This document shows positions 1-4,182 of a stretch of DNA of 4,182 bases, piece after piece. The DNA is from a virus (taxonomy: Duplodnaviria; Heunggongvirae; Uroviricota; Caudoviricetes). Position 1 is the stretch's first letter; each line of letters starts with the position of its first letter. Where the stretch lies: IMG/VR virus record IMGVR_UViG_2681813261_000023, one strand, 5' to 3'. Made by a program: the position numbers and the translations under genes. The notes beneath the pieces are model-generated. The model made no database searches. It had not been told where the DNA came from and saw only the letters and a list, made by a program, of their open reading frames with translations.

Positions 1-135
1 GCAAACATGGGCTGGCAAAAGTGTAGCGGTATTAAGCGCAGCTATTTACATCAGGATCTAAACTAAAGTATTCTTCAGGTGATAAGCCTCTTTTGTTAAC
101 CATCTTACAAAAGTACTTTAATTCGATATCACCTC

Positions 136-435
136 TTACTTTTTTTCTACTTCATCTACAGGTTTCGCAGTATTGATTAAAGCAATAATTGCTGAGTAAA
201 TTTCATTCTGGATTACAAAATCAATAGAGTTAACATTAATTCGTCCATCAATATCTTCTTCTGCGAAGATAGGATCACCATTTTCATCTTTTACACATAG
301 GATTAGAGTTTTAGCCACATCAGTGCATTTCTGGAAATCCTGACCATTTGGACGATGAATAAAGATGATTTCACCCATTACTTCATGTGGTTTTAATTCT
401 GGTTGTAGTTTTTTCTTCAATTCGTTTAAATTCAT
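136..435 (-). CDS. hypothetical acidic protein (99 aa); position after the tube gene suggests a tail assembly chaperone-like protein
   Basis: The ORF track frame 136..447 begins at a TTG. GGAG (445..442) sits 6 nt upstream of ATG 435..433 and is too close to ATG 441, so start 435 is preferred (MNLNELKKKLQ...). The protein is small, Glu/Asp-rich, and its last sense codons form an A_AAA_AAG heptamer. No family motif recognised by eye. Confidence 0.6.
   Translation of the reverse strand: MNLNELKKKLQPELKPHEVMGEIIFIHRPNGQDFQKCTDVAKTLILCVKDENGDPIFAEEDIDGRINVNSIDFVIQNEIYSAIIALINTAKPVDEVEKK
139..145 (-). promoter_or_regulatory. candidate -1 ribosomal frameshift (or transcriptional slippage) site A_AAA_AAG immediately before the stop codon
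   Basis: The minus-strand reading is GAA AAA AAG TAA (147..136). The heptamer A AAA AAG is in the X_XXY_YYZ register of the zero frame (dnaX-type). The -1 frame continues for 35 codons (VRGDIELKYFCKMVNKRGLSPEEYFSLDPDVNSCA) to TAA at 34..32. Confidence 0.25.
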
Positions 436-445
436 TTTCATCTCC

Positions 446-478
446 AATAAAAAAGGGAAAGTTGAGCACCTTCCCTTT
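446..478 (-). terminator. probable rho-independent terminator/attenuator downstream of the tube-like gene
   Basis: On the minus-strand RNA, AAAGGGAAGGU (478..468) pairs with ACUUUCCCUUU (462..452) as an 11-bp stem with one G-U pair around the loop GCUCA. It is immediately followed by UUUAUU (451..446). It starts 8 nt after the TAA stop (489..487) and is directly followed by GGAG and the next start codon. Confidence 0.45.
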
Positions 479-486
479 ATTTATTA

Positions 487-966
487 TTATTCGCCCGATT
501 CTGGTTTTGGAGTAATCAGACCTGAATCAATTGCTTCACCATCAACTGCAAGGGTGAAAGTCTTAGTTACTACTTCATCTTTATCACCACCGATAGTGGT
601 ACTTGAAACAAAGCAGGTATAAATTACAAAGAAACCTTCTTTTTTAGTTGCATCGGTAAAATAGCTTAGTTTTACCTGACAACGTTTCTGATCGTCTGCA
701 AGTTGTTCTAAATTCTGATGTACTGCATTATCTGGTAAGTAGTTAACTGCAAGAGAAATGTCCGGGATTGACTTAGTACCCAATAGCTTACGATCATAAG
801 CATTATTGAATGTTTTTACGCTAATTACAGTACTTTCAAAGCCTGAAGTACTGAAGGTGTTTACCTCTGGTACTTCTACAAAGTCAGTAGCAACTGTTTT
901 ACCAGCACTTGAACCTACTTCTACAGTAAGGTTAGCACCGGAAAAAATATCCATAGCCATAGCCAT
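487..966 (-). CDS. major tail (tube) protein-like protein, 159 aa
   Basis: ORF with ATG 966..964 preceded by AAGGA (980..976) at 9-nt spacing. The N-terminus has three ATGs (MAMAMDIFSG); the third (954..952) matches the start of the paralogue. Sequence patterns (N-terminal beta-strand LTVEV, SLAVNYLPDN...HQNLEQL..., VVTKTFTLAV) resemble, from memory, the N-domain of lambda gpV-type siphovirus tail tube proteins. Size is also appropriate for a tube protein. Confidence 0.75.
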   Translation of the reverse strand: MAMAMDIFSGANLTVEVGSSAGKTVATDFVEVPEVNTFSTSGFESTVISVKTFNNAYDRKLLGTKSIPDISLAVNYLPDNAVHQNLEQLADDQKRCQVKLSYFTDATKKEGFFVIYTCFVSSTTIGGDKDEVVTKTFTLAVDGEAIDSGLITPKPESGE

Positions 967-1024: not shown

Positions 1025-3676
1025 TTATTTATTATTTAATAGCTGTTGTACTAAATCTTTTAGCTGATTAATTTCTTCTTGTTGGGCTTGAATAGCTCCC
1101 ATCAAGTCCATCACTATTGGATTTAAATCAACACGTGGATGATCACGAGTGACAATCTCCCCTTCTATTTCAACTGTTTCTTCATCATGCTTAATGTACT
1201 GCGGAGCAGTCAACTCAGCATCTTCGGCGATAACACCAAACCTAACCCTTTCTTGTTCATCATCCTTGTAGATAAACGTTACTAAATCTTGTGACATTAT
1301 CCGATCTAATGCTTCAACTGGATTTGCTGGAGTTATGTCTCTTTTAAACTCACGACCTGATGTACCTTGAGCTTGCATTACTAACCATCCAAACCATGTT
1401 GTACCGTTCCCGCCTCGTACTCTTAAAGTACCACCACCGTCTATCTGAAGCTGAGAGCGATTTGCCCCTGGGTGTCTTTGCATGTGCAATAAAGGGGAAT
1501 ATTTTTCACTATAGTTAATACCTGAGTCACCTGGCCCTGCATACATACCGTTAAAGGTGATGGTATTGGCATCTGTCGGTCCCGAAACAGCGGTATTAGT
1601 CATCCATCCTGATTGAACATCAGTTAGGATCGTTCCAGTCGGCCCTTTTAGCCCCCATAGTTTATCCTCTGCACCATTTTCAGAAATAAAAAGGGTGAGA
1701 TCAGCCTGTCCAGTCTGTCCCATCGTTTTACCAACCCGAAAACCACCAGATATTTCAGTTGATGTACCAATGTTGCATATCGAACGAATACGCCCTCCAG
1801 TTACATAACTACCAATTGCCGTAGAGGAAGGGGAAGAAGCAATAACATCCCATTGAGGACTAACTGAAGTACGACTACTCAGCAAGTTTTCAACCCAGCG
1901 TTTGGTAGTCGCGTCAGAATCAGAGACAGGATCTCCTGCTAAAGAAGTTGCACCCGTAGGACGAATCGCAGGCCATAACTCAGCCTGAGTCTTAACACCA
2001 GTACCGCCCTGCGGAATTGCTAATGCTTTCCAGCCAGTGAAAGCACCCGCAATATATGTAGCTGAACCCCATTGCCCTCCATCATAAACCACTAATGCAG
2101 CGGAAGAATCAGCGGATTTAATAGTTGTTAAATTACTACCTTGATTAAAGCGATCCACCTGAAAGTTTAGGCGAGCACTCAAAGCATCTGTAGCCCCTGT
2201 CCCCCCCTGACCTATACCTAAAGCAATCCATCCAGTACCAGTACTTGCACCCCATGCCCCGTTATCCTGAATTCGGATACGGTTAGTCAGGTCATTACTC
2301 ATCAGATCGGTGTACGTAGCACCCTGAGTCAAACGGTTCACCTGTAGGTTAGTACGTGCTGTAGAGAGACTGGATAGATCAGAAAGGTTACTCGCTTTCT
2401 TCATGGAAGCGGAATCAAGGGAAGTAATACTGTCAGCTAAAGCCGTTACCTCTGCATCTACTTCATCCATTGAGTAAACAGCAAGGTTAATACGTGCTTC
2501 TTCCACGTCCCCCAGATCACTTAGATTACCTGCTATCGTAAGCTGGGCATCATCTGTAACCTTCCCTAAGCCAACATCAGTACTGGTAAGTACTACATCC
2601 TCACTGAGTACATGACCGTTGACCATACGTGTATCAGGTACTGAACCTGTATCTTCACTACTCAGTACTACATTTTCACTAAGTACATGACCGTTCACTG
2701 TACGCGTGTCAGGTACTGAACCTGTATCTTCACTACTCAGTACTATATCTTCACTGAGTACATGACCATTAACTGTCCGTGTATCTGGTACAGAGCCGGT
2801 ATCAGTACTGGTAAGTACTACATCCTCACTTAGAGGCTTACCATTCACAGTACGTGTATCAGGTACTGAACCTGTATCTTCACTGTTCAGTACTAAATTG
2901 GCCGTGAGTGCATGGCCGTTGATGGTACGTGTAAGGGGTACGTATCGCCCGTCCATCTGTGTAGCGGTATATATGCGTGTCCAGGCGGTTGTAGCGTTCT
3001 TTGCATAGATACTTAGAGTACCCGTCTTTGTCATCGCAAGAGAACTTACAGTAGTGCCATCTACAAGCCCTACTCCCATCAGATCCGCCCCGGCAGGATT
3101 GCCTGCTTGAGATGATGGTACTTTGATGAAGCTGTTACCCGTAGGTACTGATGGTGAGTACTGAGGTACATCCGTAGTGTTCGAACCTAAACCGTAGTCC
3201 CCCTGATAGATTGGCGATAGTGCGTTAATGGTCATTGCACGTGCGATCACATCATGTGGGGCAAAACTGTATGCCTTGGTTACTACTGAACCTTTATCAC
3301 CGTCCAACTTATAAGAGGTGATATAACCATTCACCATCGCATAAGTAATGGTATTTTCATCCTTATTCATCTGGTACTGAATGATGATCTGGAAAAGCTG
3401 CTGAGACTTAGCGGCATTATCCAAGAATTGATGTGTAGGATCATCAGGTAGGTAGTTAACTACAATATCAAATGGTGCTACTGATTTATCAGATAGTAGT
3501 ACTGTCCTGTAATCACTATCATACGTTTCAAAATTATTTGCTTCTGAATTTATTGTTAAGGTTGGAAAAGTATTAATCTGTTTAATTACTACATTGCCTG
3601 CTCCCTGTGGTGTTCTGTTACCAATATCAGCATTATACTGTACTGATAATTCTCTTCCTGAGAAAATATCACTCAT
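1025..3676 (-). CDS. tail fiber-like protein (883 aa) with N-terminal tail-tube-like domain, tandem fiber repeats and C-terminal intramolecular chaperone (peptidase S74-like) domain
   Basis: Uninterrupted 2,652-nt ORF. ATG 3676..3674 is preceded by AAGGA (3689..3685) at 8-nt spacing. Residues 1-145 align at about 30% identity with the adjacent 159-aa protein. Residues 249-373 are five tandem 25-aa repeats (TRTVNGHVLSEDVVLSSEDTGSVPD-like). Residues 374-575 carry recurring GGTG...AR.NL.V motifs typical of phage fiber shafts. Residues 771-883 (GTSGREFKRDITP...FGVIAEDAE...VDLNPIVMDLMGAIQAQQEEINQLK) match the pattern I recall for the self-cleaving C-terminal chaperone of tailspikes and fibers (Ser, then Lys five residues later, ...FGVIAqe..., C-terminal helical tail). 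Confidence 0.85.
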   Translation of the reverse strand: MSDIFSGRELSVQYNADIGNRTPQGAGNVVIKQINTFPTLTINSEANNFETYDSDYRTVLLSDKSVAPFDIVVNYLPDDPTHQFLDNAAKSQQLFQIIIQYQMNKDENTITYAMVNGYITSYKLDGDKGSVVTKAYSFAPHDVIARAMTINALSPIYQGDYGLGSNTTDVPQYSPSVPTGNSFIKVPSSQAGNPAGADLMGVGLVDGTTVSSLAMTKTGTLSIYAKNATTAWTRIYTATQMDGRYVPLTRTINGHALTANLVLNSEDTGSVPDTRTVNGKPLSEDVVLTSTDTGSVPDTRTVNGHVLSEDIVLSSEDTGSVPDTRTVNGHVLSENVVLSSEDTGSVPDTRMVNGHVLSEDVVLTSTDVGLGKVTDDAQLTIAGNLSDLGDVEEARINLAVYSMDEVDAEVTALADSITSLDSASMKKASNLSDLSSLSTARTNLQVNRLTQGATYTDLMSNDLTNRIRIQDNGAWGASTGTGWIALGIGQGGTGATDALSARLNFQVDRFNQGSNLTTIKSADSSAALVVYDGGQWGSATYIAGAFTGWKALAIPQGGTGVKTQAELWPAIRPTGATSLAGDPVSDSDATTKRWVENLLSSRTSVSPQWDVIASSPSSTAIGSYVTGGRIRSICNIGTSTEISGGFRVGKTMGQTGQADLTLFISENGAEDKLWGLKGPTGTILTDVQSGWMTNTAVSGPTDANTITFNGMYAGPGDSGINYSEKYSPLLHMQRHPGANRSQLQIDGGGTLRVRGGNGTTWFGWLVMQAQGTSGREFKRDITPANPVEALDRIMSQDLVTFIYKDDEQERVRFGVIAEDAELTAPQYIKHDEETVEIEGEIVTRDHPRVDLNPIVMDLMGAIQAQQEEINQLKDLVQQLLNNK
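1028..1357 (-). other. C-terminal intramolecular chaperone / autoproteolytic domain (aa 774-883), peptidase S74-like
   Basis: The putative catalytic Ser773 (TCA, 1360..1358) and Lys778 (AAA, 1345..1343) have the Ser-x4-Lys spacing I recall for endosialidase-type chaperone domains. They are followed by ITP...ALD...FIYKDD...RFGVIAEDAE...VDLNPIV..L.GAIQA.QEEINQLK, resembling the family consensus. Confidence 0.7.
1952..2266 (-). repeat. divergent internal duplication of a Gly/Trp-rich GGTG module (aa 471-575)
   Basis: The peptide segments DNGAWGASTGTGWIALGIGQGGTGATDALSARLNF and DGGQWGSATYIAGAFTGWKALAIPQGGTGVKTQAELWPAI align. DNA similarity is low, so this is an old duplication seen at protein level only. 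Confidence 0.45.
2558..2932 (-). repeat. five in-frame tandem repeats of 75 bp (25 aa) inside the fiber gene
   Basis: A 40-nt block (gtatcaggtactgaacctgtatcttcactactcagtacta) recurs on the plus strand at about 2631, 2706 and 2857, with a diverged copy at 2781. A second block (tactggtaagtactacatcctcact) recurs at 2581 and 2806, i.e. 3 x 75 apart. The encoded peptide units are residues 249-273, 274-298, 299-323, 324-348 and 349-373. Confidence 0.9.
3242..3676 (-). other. N-terminal tail-tube-like domain of the 883-aa protein (aa 1-145), paralogous to the 159-aa protein
   Basis: Pairwise alignment by eye: MSDIFSGRELSV vs MDIFSGANLTV; NTF; Y..LL.KS.PD; VNYLPDD vs VNYLPDN; HQ.L; GDKGSVVTKAYSFA vs GDKDEVVTKTFTLA. 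The VNYLPD codons are nearly identical at DNA level (3443..3460 vs 730..747, 16 of 18 nt). Confidence 0.65.
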
Positions 3677-3693: not shown

Positions 3694-4086
3694 TTATCTT
3701 GTCTTTTCCGTAACTTGAATATTTATCGTAAAGGATAGGGAAACCGAGCCAGTTATAGGATCTGTGACAATATCGGATTGTTCATAAGAACACGAAAGCA
3801 TTATTAAACCTGCATCACTGAATGCTGAAGTTTTCTCTTTATCAAAAGTACTAATAATCTGATCATAAGTGATGGATGGGGCTGTATTACCTGATTCTGG
3901 TTTAGGGGAAATCAGATACTGAATTGCAAAGTTACCTGCCCGGCGTTCATTGCTGAAACTTAAACTCGTTAATGAGTAATCAAAAGCAATTTGTTCAAAT
4001 ACATCAACATCACGTGATACTGTCAGATTCTTAGTAGCATTGATAAGCTGCTTCATCGTATTCCGTACTTTTTGTACTAACATCAT
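3694..4086 (-). CDS. hypothetical small protein (130 aa); size and position suggest a tail terminator / tail completion-type protein
   Basis: The ORF track gives an open frame 3694..4158 (-) whose first codon is GTG at 4158 with no Shine-Dalgarno. The ATG at 4086..4084 is preceded by AGAGGA (4100..4095) at 8-nt spacing, so the 130-aa form MMLVQKVRNT... is preferred. Stop TAA 3696..3694 lies 17 nt upstream of the next start. No family motif recognised by eye; function is inferred only from size and position immediately upstream of the tube-like genes. Confidence 0.55.
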   Translation of the reverse strand: MMLVQKVRNTMKQLINATKNLTVSRDVDVFEQIAFDYSLTSLSFSNERRAGNFAIQYLISPKPESGNTAPSITYDQIISTFDKEKTSAFSDAGLIMLSCSYEQSDIVTDPITGSVSLSFTINIQVTEKTR

Positions 4087-4182
4087 ATTAGTAGTCCTCT
4101 GCAAATGAAGCACCAGCAGAATGGATTTGCCCCTATATTTCCAGACATCTGTTATCACTTAACCCATTACAAGCCCGCTGCC

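What the first reader, a model, noticed from the sequence alone, without database searches (positions are those of the whole stretch)
1028..1378. C-terminal intramolecular chaperone domain with putative Ser773/Lys778 autoproteolytic dyad
Residues 771-883 follow the pattern of the self-cleaving C-terminal chaperone of endosialidase-type tailspikes and L-shaped fibers: Ser, Lys five residues later, ...FGVIAEDAE..., and a C-terminal helical segment AIQAQQEEINQLKDLV. In that family the domain drives trimer folding and is then cut off after the catalytic Ser. The prediction here is a mature fiber ending at Ser773 and a released ~110-aa fragment.
Basis: partly seen in the sequence, partly recalled or inferred. 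Interest (0 to 1): 0.55.

Follow-up and report, generated by a model that had tools for sequence, protein, structure and literature searches.

The report
Self-cleaving chaperone on prophage tail fibre

Summary
Window 1028-1378 (minus strand) encodes residues 767-883 of an 883-aa ORF (1025..3676).

The domain is a real Peptidase_S74 / intramolecular chaperone, on four lines of evidence:
- Pfam PF13884 scores 34-38 bits against a cut-off of 22.
- The region is 60% identical to the chaperone domain of the DT57C L-shaped fibre (E=1e-33).
- A family profile hits MyRF ICA, S16 gp37 and GA-1 gp12.
- The only significant fold matches of an AlphaFold model (pLDDT >90) are MyRF ICA, the endoNF chaperone and GA-1 gp12.

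One correction is needed. In T5 pb1 and MyRF the bond cut lies before the catalytic Ser. The predicted products are therefore 1-772 (81.5 kDa, ending ...QGT) and 773-883 (111 aa, 12.8 kDa). Cleavage itself is untested. The residue after Ser is Gly instead of the usual Asp; this variant is shared with DT57C LtfA, where cleavage is also only predicted.

Two points of context:
- The N-terminal 250 residues are a tail-tube (gpV-like) module. It is conserved across about 100 protein clusters from Enterobacteriaceae prophages.
- In this genome the prophage is damaged, by an IS2 insertion upstream and a truncation downstream.

Interest is low.

The parts
1025..3676 (-). Tail-fibre gene, 883 aa plus stop. 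In order: a tail-tube-like anchor, a beta-sandwich, 5 x 25-aa repeats, the shaft, a variable tip and the S74 chaperone.
   Evidence: ORF list. PHROG tail-fibre families score E up to 1e-37. The exact protein is named 'tail fiber domain-containing protein [Shigella sonnei]'.
1028..1360 (-). Residues 773-883: the Peptidase_S74 intramolecular chaperone, predicted to be released as a 111-aa, 12.79-kDa fragment.
   Evidence: Pfam PF13884; PDB sequence hits; AlphaFold pLDDT 87-96 across this stretch; Foldseek hits 7dc3, 3gw6 and 3gud; fragment mass.
1358..1363 (-). Codons for Thr772 and Ser773: the predicted scissile bond T772|S773, with Ser773 as nucleophile.
   Evidence: Ser773 aligns with residue 1 of 3gud and with the S587A position of 7dc3. 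The cut lies before Ser in T5 pb1 and MyRF.
1343..1345 (-). Codon for Lys778, the predicted general base of the Ser-Lys dyad.
   Evidence: This Lys is an invariant column (K45 of alignment A1) in 21 diverse family members. It is equivalent to K916 of endoNF and K592 of MyRF, per PMC8326128.
1214..1240 (-). Residues 813-821, FGVIAEDAE: the conserved G-[VF]-I-A-[QE] core motif of the S74 body.
   Evidence: G81 is invariant and I83 nearly invariant in A1. The motif aligns with rrGvIAqq in the PDB profile alignments.
1130..1195 (-). Residues 828-849: a predicted long beta-hairpin, the counterpart of the 'tentacle' seen in T5 pb1.
   Evidence: The AlphaFold model has strands at model residues 95-104 and 107-116 with pLDDT >90. 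The tentacles are described in PMC4690869.
1034..1126 (-). Residues 851-881: the C-terminal amphipathic helix, predicted to form the trimeric coiled coil.
   Evidence: The AlphaFold model has a helix at model residues 118-148. Of the ten a/d heptad positions, 8 are hydrophobic (V/I at a, L at d). The QQxQIDELKxLVQxLL motif is conserved across the family.
1361..1951 (-). Residues 576-772: the hypervariable distal tip, presumed to be the receptor-binding part that the chaperone folds.
   Evidence: Only 8 of 118 homologues share this stretch, whereas 118 share the N-terminus. The nearest phage match is 46.7% identical (SDYTW1-F1-2-2_3).
2558..2932 (-). Residues 249-373: five tandem 25-aa repeats (TRTVNGHxLSEDVVLxSxDTGSVPD), 75-nt period.
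   Evidence: TRF finds period 75, 4.1 copies, 80% matches. The repeats are listed at protein level.
2927..3676 (-). Residues 1-250: the conserved anchor. Residues 1-150 have a tail-tube-protein fold and are a paralogue of the adjacent TTP; residues ~180-240 form a beta-sandwich.
   Evidence: phrog_158 major tail protein, E=1.3e-16. 31% identity, E=1e-20, to the neighbouring TTP. Foldseek hits lambda gpV, 80alpha, NF5 and YDC107 tubes. All 120 homologues share it starting at residue 1.
487..966 (-). Tail tube protein gene, immediately downstream of the fibre gene.
   Evidence: Pfam Phage_tail_3, 34 bits against a cut-off of 24.2; phrog_158 E=4.6e-20.
136..447 (-). Tail assembly chaperone gene (gpG-like).
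   Evidence: phrog_344 E=1.6e-06. Pfam Phage_TAC_13 scores below its cut-off.
3694..4086 (-). 130-aa gene upstream of the fibre gene, of unknown family. By position it is a neck or tail-terminator candidate.
   Evidence: No Pfam, PHROG or NCBIfam hit. It is 59-88% identical and syntenic in 8 related loci.
4122..4182 (.). Terminal 61 nt of IS2, inserted in the 3' end of the 107-aa head-tail gene that normally precedes the 130-aa gene.
   Evidence: 100% match to annotated IS2 copies. Comparison with the intact E. coli prophage L007 shows that only the last 11 codons of the 107-aa gene remain.
1..46 (.). Foreign sequence resembling a lambdoid tail-fibre-assembly gene. The tail module breaks off here, inside the second (gpT-like) chaperone ORF.
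   Evidence: Other S. sonnei contigs are colinear only from nt 47 and continue into the tape-measure and J-like genes. The junction is shown base by base.

Best explanation
Residues 773-883 are a C-terminal intramolecular chaperone of the Peptidase_S74 family, at the end of a prophage tail-fibre protein. The likely mechanism is as follows. Three chains associate through the C-terminal amphipathic helix (851-881), which forms a trimeric coiled coil. The alpha/beta body and the long hairpin (828-849) template folding of the variable distal tip (about 576-772). Once the trimer is correctly formed, Ser773, activated by Lys778, attacks the Thr772-Ser773 peptide bond. This releases a 111-aa (12.8 kDa) fragment that starts SGREFK and leaves an 81.5-kDa mature fibre that ends ...MQAQGT. 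Shown here: family membership, the alignment of the dyad, the fold, and the C-terminal position. Inferred from homologues: trimerisation, the chaperone role, the self-cleavage, and the exact bond.
For: Pfam PF13884 scores above its gathering cut-off. The region is 60% identical over 111 residues to the chaperone domain of DT57C LtfA, E=1e-33. A profile of 21 family members hits MyRF ICA (6e-14), S16 gp37 (8e-13), 8jov (2e-12) and GA-1 gp12 (1e-5). In these alignments Ser773 falls in the column of the first residue of the crystallised GA-1 chaperone and of MyRF S587. The AlphaFold model has pLDDT >90 for the domain, and its only significant PDB fold matches are 7dc3, 3gw6 and 3gud. Lys at +5 is invariant, and Ser is nearly invariant, across the family. 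Within the close QGTSGxx[FY]K subclade, 13 of 14 fragments that still carry the motif keep both Ser and Lys while the residues between them vary. The C-terminal helix has 8 of 10 hydrophobic a/d positions. The bond position comes from T5 pb1 (Thr1263|Ser1264) and MyRF (P586|S587). A natural swap supports the chaperone role: in a syntenic Enterobacter prophage the fibre lacks S74, and a separate 125-aa Caudo_TAP (Tfa-type assembly chaperone, 27.2 bits against a cut-off of 22.1) sits between the fibre and tube genes.
Against: There are no experimental data for this protein or for its closest relative; DT57C LtfA cleavage is only predicted. The residue after the nucleophile is Gly. It is Asp in 82 of 120 homologues and in at least 90% of alignment A1, and the effect of this change on catalysis is unknown. 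The stretch just upstream of the cut (734-770) was modelled at low confidence as a monomer. I could therefore not check for an upstream trimer 'sensor' like Arg1250/Asp1239 of T5. In this genome the prophage is damaged, so the protein may never be made or assembled here.
Confidence: 0.82

Rival explanations
1. The S74 domain is present and helps folding or trimerisation, but it is not cleaved, or only poorly, because the Ser-Gly variant of the motif has lost efficient autoproteolysis. The domain would then stay on the fibre as a permanent cap.
For: Gly774 replaces the Asp found in 82 of 120 homologues and in at least 90% of A1. No member of the SG subclade has documented cleavage. One subclade fragment, P0130, has Ala at the Ser position, which suggests non-cleaving variants exist.
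Against: Ser and Lys are kept in 13 of 14 motif-bearing SG-subclade sequences while the residues between them vary, as expected if the dyad is under selection. In T5 the uncleaved chaperone blocks receptor binding (PMC4690869), so a permanent cap would probably disable the fibre. MyRF mutagenesis found only S587 and K592 indispensable among the residues tested. The Asp was not among those mutated, so nothing shows that it is required.
Confidence: 0.1
2. In this particular genome the gene is a recently stranded relic. The domain is intact in sequence, but the prophage cannot build tails, so no chaperone-assisted fibre maturation takes place here. This is compatible with the best explanation for what the domain does.
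For: IS2 sits inside the 3' end of the upstream 107-aa head-tail gene, both in the window and in other S. sonnei contigs. The window's tail module stops after 20 codons of the gpT-like ORF and joins unrelated tfa-like DNA, so the tape-measure and tip genes are absent at this locus. Another S. sonnei allele, P0002, is truncated at about residue 567 and carries a 55-aa duplication. No complete E. coli genome carries the module.
Against: The 883-aa ORF is intact and identical on at least 24 contigs read, and it is indexed in 130 blocks of the collection. Other S. sonnei contigs keep the full tail module downstream. The 46/47 junction could be an assembly artefact; it was not found in species-representative genomes.
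Confidence: 0.5
3. The resemblance to S74 is a chance match of a short Ser-x4-Lys motif and a helical tail.
For: None beyond the shortness of the motif itself.
Against: Four independent tests agree: Pfam above its cut-off, E=1e-33 to a PDB chain, profile hits to four solved chaperones, and fold matches restricted to this family.
Confidence: 0.01

Closest known systems
DT57C / DT571/2 LtfA C-terminal domain (T5-like L-shaped tail fibre; sequence of PDB 8hqz chain d)
   Same: 60% identity over 111 residues. It has the same QGT-SG-x-E-[FY]-K motif, the same FGVIAE core, hairpin region and terminal helix, and it sits at the C-terminus of a fibre.
   Different: The rest of the protein is unrelated. 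LtfA is anchored by an N-terminal lasso in the LtfC collar of a virulent T5-like phage, whereas the anchor here is a tail-tube-like domain in a temperate siphophage. Cleavage of LtfA is only predicted.
Phage T5 pb1 intramolecular chaperone (residues 1264-1396)
   Same: A C-terminal self-cleaving chaperone of a siphophage side fibre, with a Ser/Lys dyad, a Thr|Ser scissile bond, a central trimeric coiled coil and beta-hairpin tentacles. Removal of the chaperone unmasks receptor binding (PMC4690869).
   Different: Sequence similarity is too low for phmmer or the family profile to find it. The domain is 133 aa rather than 111. An equivalent of its upstream Arg1250/Asp1239 sensor could not be identified here.
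Endosialidase endoNF (phage K1F) C-terminal intramolecular chaperone domain, PDB 3gw6
   Same: This is the founding member of Peptidase_S74, with the S911/K916 dyad. The fold matches (Foldseek prob 1.00, E about 2e-3).
   Different: It caps a tailspike enzyme with a triple beta-helix stalk, not a long fibre. Only the fold search finds it, not sequence search. TM-scores are modest (0.41-0.47), because 3gw6 includes stalk residues and the model is a monomer.
MyRF ICA domain (mammalian myelin regulatory factor), PDB 7dc3
   Same: It is the best structural match (TM 0.60-0.66, E=3e-06) and a strong profile hit (6e-14). It has the same Ser-x4-Lys dyad and cuts before Ser.
   Different: It is part of a eukaryotic membrane-bound transcription factor, and cleavage there releases a DNA-binding domain rather than maturing a fibre.
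Tfa / Caudo_TAP trans-acting tail-fibre assembly proteins (lambda Tfa type)
   Same: They do the same job, folding the distal fibre tip. One occupies the same locus position in a syntenic Enterobacter prophage whose fibre lacks S74.
   Different: It is a separate polypeptide of an unrelated family, and no autoproteolysis is involved.
Lambda gpV (tail tube protein with C-terminal Ig-like domain); comparison for the N-terminus only
   Same: Residues 1-150 have the tube-protein fold. Full-length gpV aligns over about 260 columns, including the second beta-domain. The gene lies next to the true tube gene and is its paralogue.
   Different: gpV ends after the Ig-like domain, whereas here about 630 further residues of fibre and chaperone follow. 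Pfam tube families do not reach threshold on this N-terminus.

Membership tests
Peptidase_S74 / C-terminal intramolecular chaperone domain (CIMCD/ICA) | Match to the curated family profile (Pfam PF13884) above its gathering score | tested here: met
   34.1 bits for the whole protein and 38.1 bits for the domain, against a cut-off of 22. Residues 774-822 match model positions 2-51 of 58.
Peptidase_S74 / C-terminal intramolecular chaperone domain (CIMCD/ICA) | Nucleophilic Ser at the start of the domain, homologous to endoNF S911, T5 pb1 S1264 and MyRF S587 | tested here: met
   Ser773 occupies the profile column matched by residue 1 of 3gud (SDERHK) and by the S587A position of 7dc3. The column is at least 90% Ser in A1.
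Peptidase_S74 / C-terminal intramolecular chaperone domain (CIMCD/ICA) | Lys five residues after the Ser (the general base of the dyad) | tested here: met
   Lys778. This column is invariant in 21 diverse members and present in every S74-bearing homologue surveyed.
Peptidase_S74 / C-terminal intramolecular chaperone domain (CIMCD/ICA) | Asp immediately after the Ser (a highly conserved 'SD' motif; not shown to be essential) | tested here: not met
   Residue 774 is Gly. SD occurs in 82 of 120 homologues and SG in 2, plus DT57C LtfA and the close fragments. This is a subclade trait, not a criterion the family is defined by.
Peptidase_S74 / C-terminal intramolecular chaperone domain (CIMCD/ICA) | Characteristic fold: an alpha/beta body, a long beta-hairpin and a C-terminal helix able to form a coiled coil | tested here: met
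   The AlphaFold monomer has pLDDT 87-96 for residues 773-883. All Foldseek hits with E<0.01 are 7dc3, 3gw6 or 3gud. Heptad periodicity is shown.
Peptidase_S74 / C-terminal intramolecular chaperone domain (CIMCD/ICA) | Located at the extreme C-terminus of a trimeric phage fibre or spike | tested here: met
   The domain ends at the stop codon. The upstream part matches PHROG tail-fibre families and phage fibre genes. The trimeric state itself was not tested.
Peptidase_S74 / C-terminal intramolecular chaperone domain (CIMCD/ICA) | Trimerisation-dependent autoproteolysis that releases the domain | not testable with these tools
   This needs expression with SDS-PAGE or mass spectrometry, and S773A and K778A mutants. 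No multimer prediction tool was available.
Siphophage tail tube protein (lambda gpV-like); N-terminal domain only | Sequence and fold relationship to tail tube proteins | tested here: met
   phrog_158 E=1.3e-16. 31% identity, E=1e-20, to the adjacent TTP. Foldseek prob 1.00 to lambda gpV, 80alpha, NF5, YDC107 and monocin tubes. No Pfam tube family reaches threshold on this domain.
Siphophage tail tube protein (lambda gpV-like); N-terminal domain only | Assembles as a hexameric ring within the tail tube | not testable with these tools
   This needs cryo-EM or virion proteomics of an intact relative.

The most novel reading that the evidence does not exclude
The fibre may be attached by a gpV-like tube module (tube fold plus beta-sandwich) rather than by a collar or tip adaptor. 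This module would form, or join, a hexameric ring in the tail tube, so that six chains give two trimeric fibres, each matured by its own S74 chaperone. That would be a mode of side-fibre attachment I did not find described. The module defines a compact family of about 100 clusters at 50% identity, nearly all 400-1560 aa long, in Enterobacteriaceae prophages. The gene order is always 130-aa gene, fibre, tube protein, assembly chaperone.
Probability: 0.3. Interest if true: 0.55.

Novelty: new member of a known kind. Interest (0 to 1): 0.2.

Why it matters
For the finding as given, little changes. S74 chaperones are common on phage fibres and spikes: a 2024 fibre-structure atlas calls the domain common across several fibre classes. 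Databases already tag this protein with PF13884, and NCBI already names relatives 'S74 family peptidase'.

The practical gain is a precise boundary. The mature receptor-binding fibre should end at Thr772. This matters for anyone who wants to express or engineer the tip, because an uncleaved chaperone blocks receptor binding in T5.

The more interesting by-product is the tube-like N-terminal anchor. If confirmed structurally, it would add a new way of mounting side fibres on a siphophage tail.

Tried and rejected
- Megablast of the whole window against phage genomes and 5,426 complete E. coli genomes matched only the two ends (IS2 and tfa-like DNA). No sequenced phage or complete E. coli genome carries the module.
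- NCBIfam gave no hit for the fibre.
- phmmer and the family profile did not retrieve T5 pb1 or endoNF from the PDB by sequence. endoNF came up only by fold.
- A protein search with the C-terminal 124 residues alone returned only short gene fragments. These were useful for motif conservation and nothing else.
- Literature searches for a tube-anchored fibre found nothing relevant. A search for phage YDC107, whose tail tube was a fold match, also found nothing on fibres.
- An exact search for the 46/47 junction in species-representative genomes found nothing.
- GC and GC3 differences between modules are mostly explained by amino-acid composition. I do not use them as evidence for module exchange.
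- Rfam gave no hits.
- A tailocin origin was considered and rejected. The related E. coli locus has terminase, portal and protease-capsid genes directly upstream.
Full report
**What is there.** The window's longest ORF runs 1025..3676 on the minus strand and encodes 883 aa. The finding's coordinates, 1028-1378, cover residues 767-883.
- Ser773 and Lys778, in the context QGT-S-GREF-K
- FGVIAEDAE at residues 813-821
- AIQAQQEEINQLKDLV at residues 861-876

Nothing else competes for this stretch. The opposite-strand ORFs are 40-52 aa with no support, and Rfam finds nothing.

**Is it an S74 chaperone?** Yes, by four independent tests.
1. Pfam PF13884 (Peptidase_S74, 'chaperone of endosialidase') scores 34.1 bits on the whole protein and 38.1 bits on the isolated C-terminus, against a curated cut-off of 22. 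Residue 774 aligns to model position 2, which puts Ser773 at position 1.
2. phmmer against all PDB sequences gives E=1e-33 to chain 8hqz_d, the 1076-aa L-shaped tail-fibre protein of the T5-like phage DT57C. Identity is 60% over 111 residues, and the motif QGTSG-x-E-[FY]-K is the same.
3. A profile built from 21 diverse C-termini of homologues (alignment A1) hits four other solved chaperones: MyRF ICA 7dc3 (6e-14), Salmonella phage S16 gp37 6f45 (8e-13), 8jov (2e-12) and Bacillus phage GA-1 gp12 3gud (1e-5). In these alignments the Ser column is matched by the very first residue of the crystallised GA-1 chaperone (SDERHK...) and by the S587A position of MyRF.
4. An AlphaFold model of the last 150 residues has pLDDT 87-96 from residue 773 onward. 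It shows a small alpha/beta body, a long beta-hairpin (828-849) and a 31-residue terminal helix (851-881). In a Foldseek search of the PDB, every hit with E<0.01 is an intramolecular chaperone: 7dc3 (TM 0.60-0.66), 3gw6 (endoNF) and 3gud.

The terminal helix has hydrophobic residues at 8 of 10 a/d heptad positions, as expected for the trimeric coiled coil that drives assembly in this family.

**The dyad and the cut site.** Lys at +5 is an invariant column and Ser a nearly invariant one. Among 120 full-length homologues, 82 read S-D-x3-K, 11 read C-D-I-[KR]-L-K, and 2 read S-G-x-[ED]-[FY]-K, namely the query's own cluster and a Salmonella protein. Close fragments of the SG subclade keep Ser and Lys in 13 of 14 motif-bearing cases while the residues between them vary. 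This argues that the dyad is under selection.

The experimental record says otherwise:
- In T5 pb1 the bond is Thr1263-Ser1264, and Ser leaves with the chaperone. The same is reported for K1F. Only phi29 is ambiguous (PMC4690869).
- In MyRF, mass spectrometry places the cut at P586|S587 (PMC8326128).

By homology the bond here is Thr772|Ser773. The products would be residues 1-772 (81.49 kDa) and 773-883 (111 aa, 12.79 kDa).

**What remains unproven.** Cleavage, trimerisation and the chaperone role are all inferred.
- The nearest relative, DT57C LtfA, has only a predicted cleavage site (PMC4728585).
- Gly774 replaces an Asp that is otherwise highly conserved. The Asp was not among the residues mutated in the MyRF study, so its importance is unknown.
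- The stretch upstream of the cut was modelled at low confidence as a monomer. I could therefore not look for a trimer-sensing residue like T5's Arg1250.

**Comparative support for the chaperone role.** Eight syntenic loci from Scandinavium, Pluralibacter, Buttiauxella, Phytobacter, Pseudescherichia, Enterobacter and E. coli all share one gene order: 130-aa gene, fibre, tube protein, assembly chaperone. The flanking genes are 54-89% identical to those in the window.

Six of these fibres end in an S74 domain. One (L014) ends in a Phage_tail_C_2 domain. One (L015) ends in neither, and there a separate 125-aa Caudo_TAP (Tfa-type fibre assembly protein, 27.2 bits against a cut-off of 22.1) is wedged between the fibre and tube genes. 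So a trans-acting chaperone appears where the built-in one is missing.

**Architecture of the whole protein.** Coverage by homologues shows a typical mosaic fibre:

| Residues | Shared by (of 118 homologues) | What it is |
|---|---|---|
| 1-250 | all | conserved anchor |
| 249-373 | about 95-110 | five 25-aa repeats |
| up to about 550 | most | shaft |
| 576-750 | 8 | variable tip |
| S74 domain | 44 | chaperone |

The N-terminal 150 residues are a paralogue of the adjacent tail tube protein (31% identity, E=1e-20) and match phrog_158 'major tail protein'. They are predicted to have the tube fold. Full-length lambda gpV, including its second beta-domain, aligns over about 260 columns.

An exhaustive HMMER scan of 1.84 billion representatives finds only 141 proteins with E<=1e-3. 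About 100 of these are long proteins (400-1563 aa) that carry this module from residue 1. INPHARED holds a single distant relative, phage DCP80, which has two such genes in tandem upstream of its tube gene.

I found no paper describing this anchor. How and where it joins the tail is unknown. A hexameric ring bearing two trimeric fibres is geometrically plausible but untested.

**Genomic setting.** The exact protein is catalogued as 'tail fiber domain-containing protein [Shigella sonnei]' with PF13884 already attached, and relatives are named 'pyocin knob domain-containing S74 family peptidase'. It occurs on many S. sonnei contigs.

A related E. coli prophage shows the intact layout: small and large terminase, portal, a protease-capsid fusion, a 107-aa gene, the 130-aa gene, the fibre, the tube protein, the assembly chaperones, the tape measure and a J-like tip. 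This is a siphophage, not a tailocin.

In S. sonnei the prophage is damaged in several ways:
- IS2 is inserted in the 3' end of the 107-aa gene, leaving only its last 11 codons (window 4122-4182).
- In the window, the tail module also breaks off after 20 codons of the gpT-like ORF and joins tfa-like DNA (nt 1-46).
- Another S. sonnei allele is truncated at about residue 567.

The domain is therefore intact in sequence, but it probably sits in a defective prophage.

**Verdict.** This is a new, uncharacterised member of a well-known domain family, already annotated automatically. Interest is low (0.2). The tube-like anchor is the only part that might repay further work.

Noticed in passing
window 2927-3676 (-), residues 1-250: The fibre's N-terminus is a tail-tube-protein fold plus a beta-sandwich (gpV-like) and is a paralogue of the adjacent tube gene. 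It is conserved from residue 1 in all 120 best homologues and defines about 100 clusters of long proteins in a 1.84-billion-protein library. I found no published description of a fibre anchored this way.
   Followed up: partly
window 4122-4182; L001 ~480-545; L007 9556-9590: The right end of IS2 abuts the last 11 codons (SAGASFAEDY*) of the 107-aa head-tail gene that precedes the 130-aa gene in the intact E. coli relative. That gene is therefore interrupted in S. sonnei.
   Followed up: yes
window 1-47: The tail module stops 20 codons into the gpT-like assembly-chaperone ORF and continues as DNA that matches a lambdoid tail-fibre-assembly gene fragment. Other S. sonnei contigs run on into the tape-measure and J-like genes. 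The junction was not found in species-representative genomes, so a deletion or recombination cannot be told apart from an assembly artefact.
   Followed up: partly
homologues P0073, P0075, P0080-P0083, P0088, P0093, P0097, P0100, P0103; locus L013: Eleven of 120 family members have Cys in place of the catalytic Ser (PNCDI[KR]LK), with the Lys retained. This could be a Cys-Lys version of the self-cleaving dyad.
   Followed up: no
L015 8414-8791: In an Enterobacter prophage the orthologous fibre has no S74 domain. A separate 125-aa Caudo_TAP (Tfa-type) chaperone gene sits between the fibre and tube genes. This is a natural swap of a built-in chaperone for a trans-acting one.
   Followed up: yes
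window 2558-2932 (-), residues 249-373: Five tandem 25-aa repeats (TRTVNGHxLSEDVVLxSxDTGSVPD; 75-nt period, about 80% DNA identity). They resemble the phage fibre repeat seen in lambda-type side fibres. No Pfam repeat family reached threshold.
   Followed up: partly
window 951-966 (-): The tube gene starts MAMAMD here but MAMD in other S. sonnei contigs. A 6-nt ATGGCT tandem duplication accounts for the only length difference between the window and those contigs.
   Followed up: yes
P0002 (S. sonnei, 622 aa): This allele of the same gene, from a 4.98-Mb S. sonnei contig, has a 55-aa internal duplication (residues ~425-479) and ends at about residue 567. It lacks the tip and the chaperone.
   Followed up: partly
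window 452-478 (-): A terminator-like hairpin (11 pairs, followed by a T run) lies between the tube gene and the assembly-chaperone gene. It may attenuate transcription after the abundant tube protein.
   Followed up: no
L006 (phage DCP80) 8763-13705: DCP80 is the only phage record with a relative of the anchor. It carries two tandem genes (698 and 745 aa) with the tube-like N-terminus, directly upstream of its tube gene. The 141-kb record is classified as a T4-like Gaprivervirus, which seems at odds with a siphophage-type tail module.
   Followed up: no
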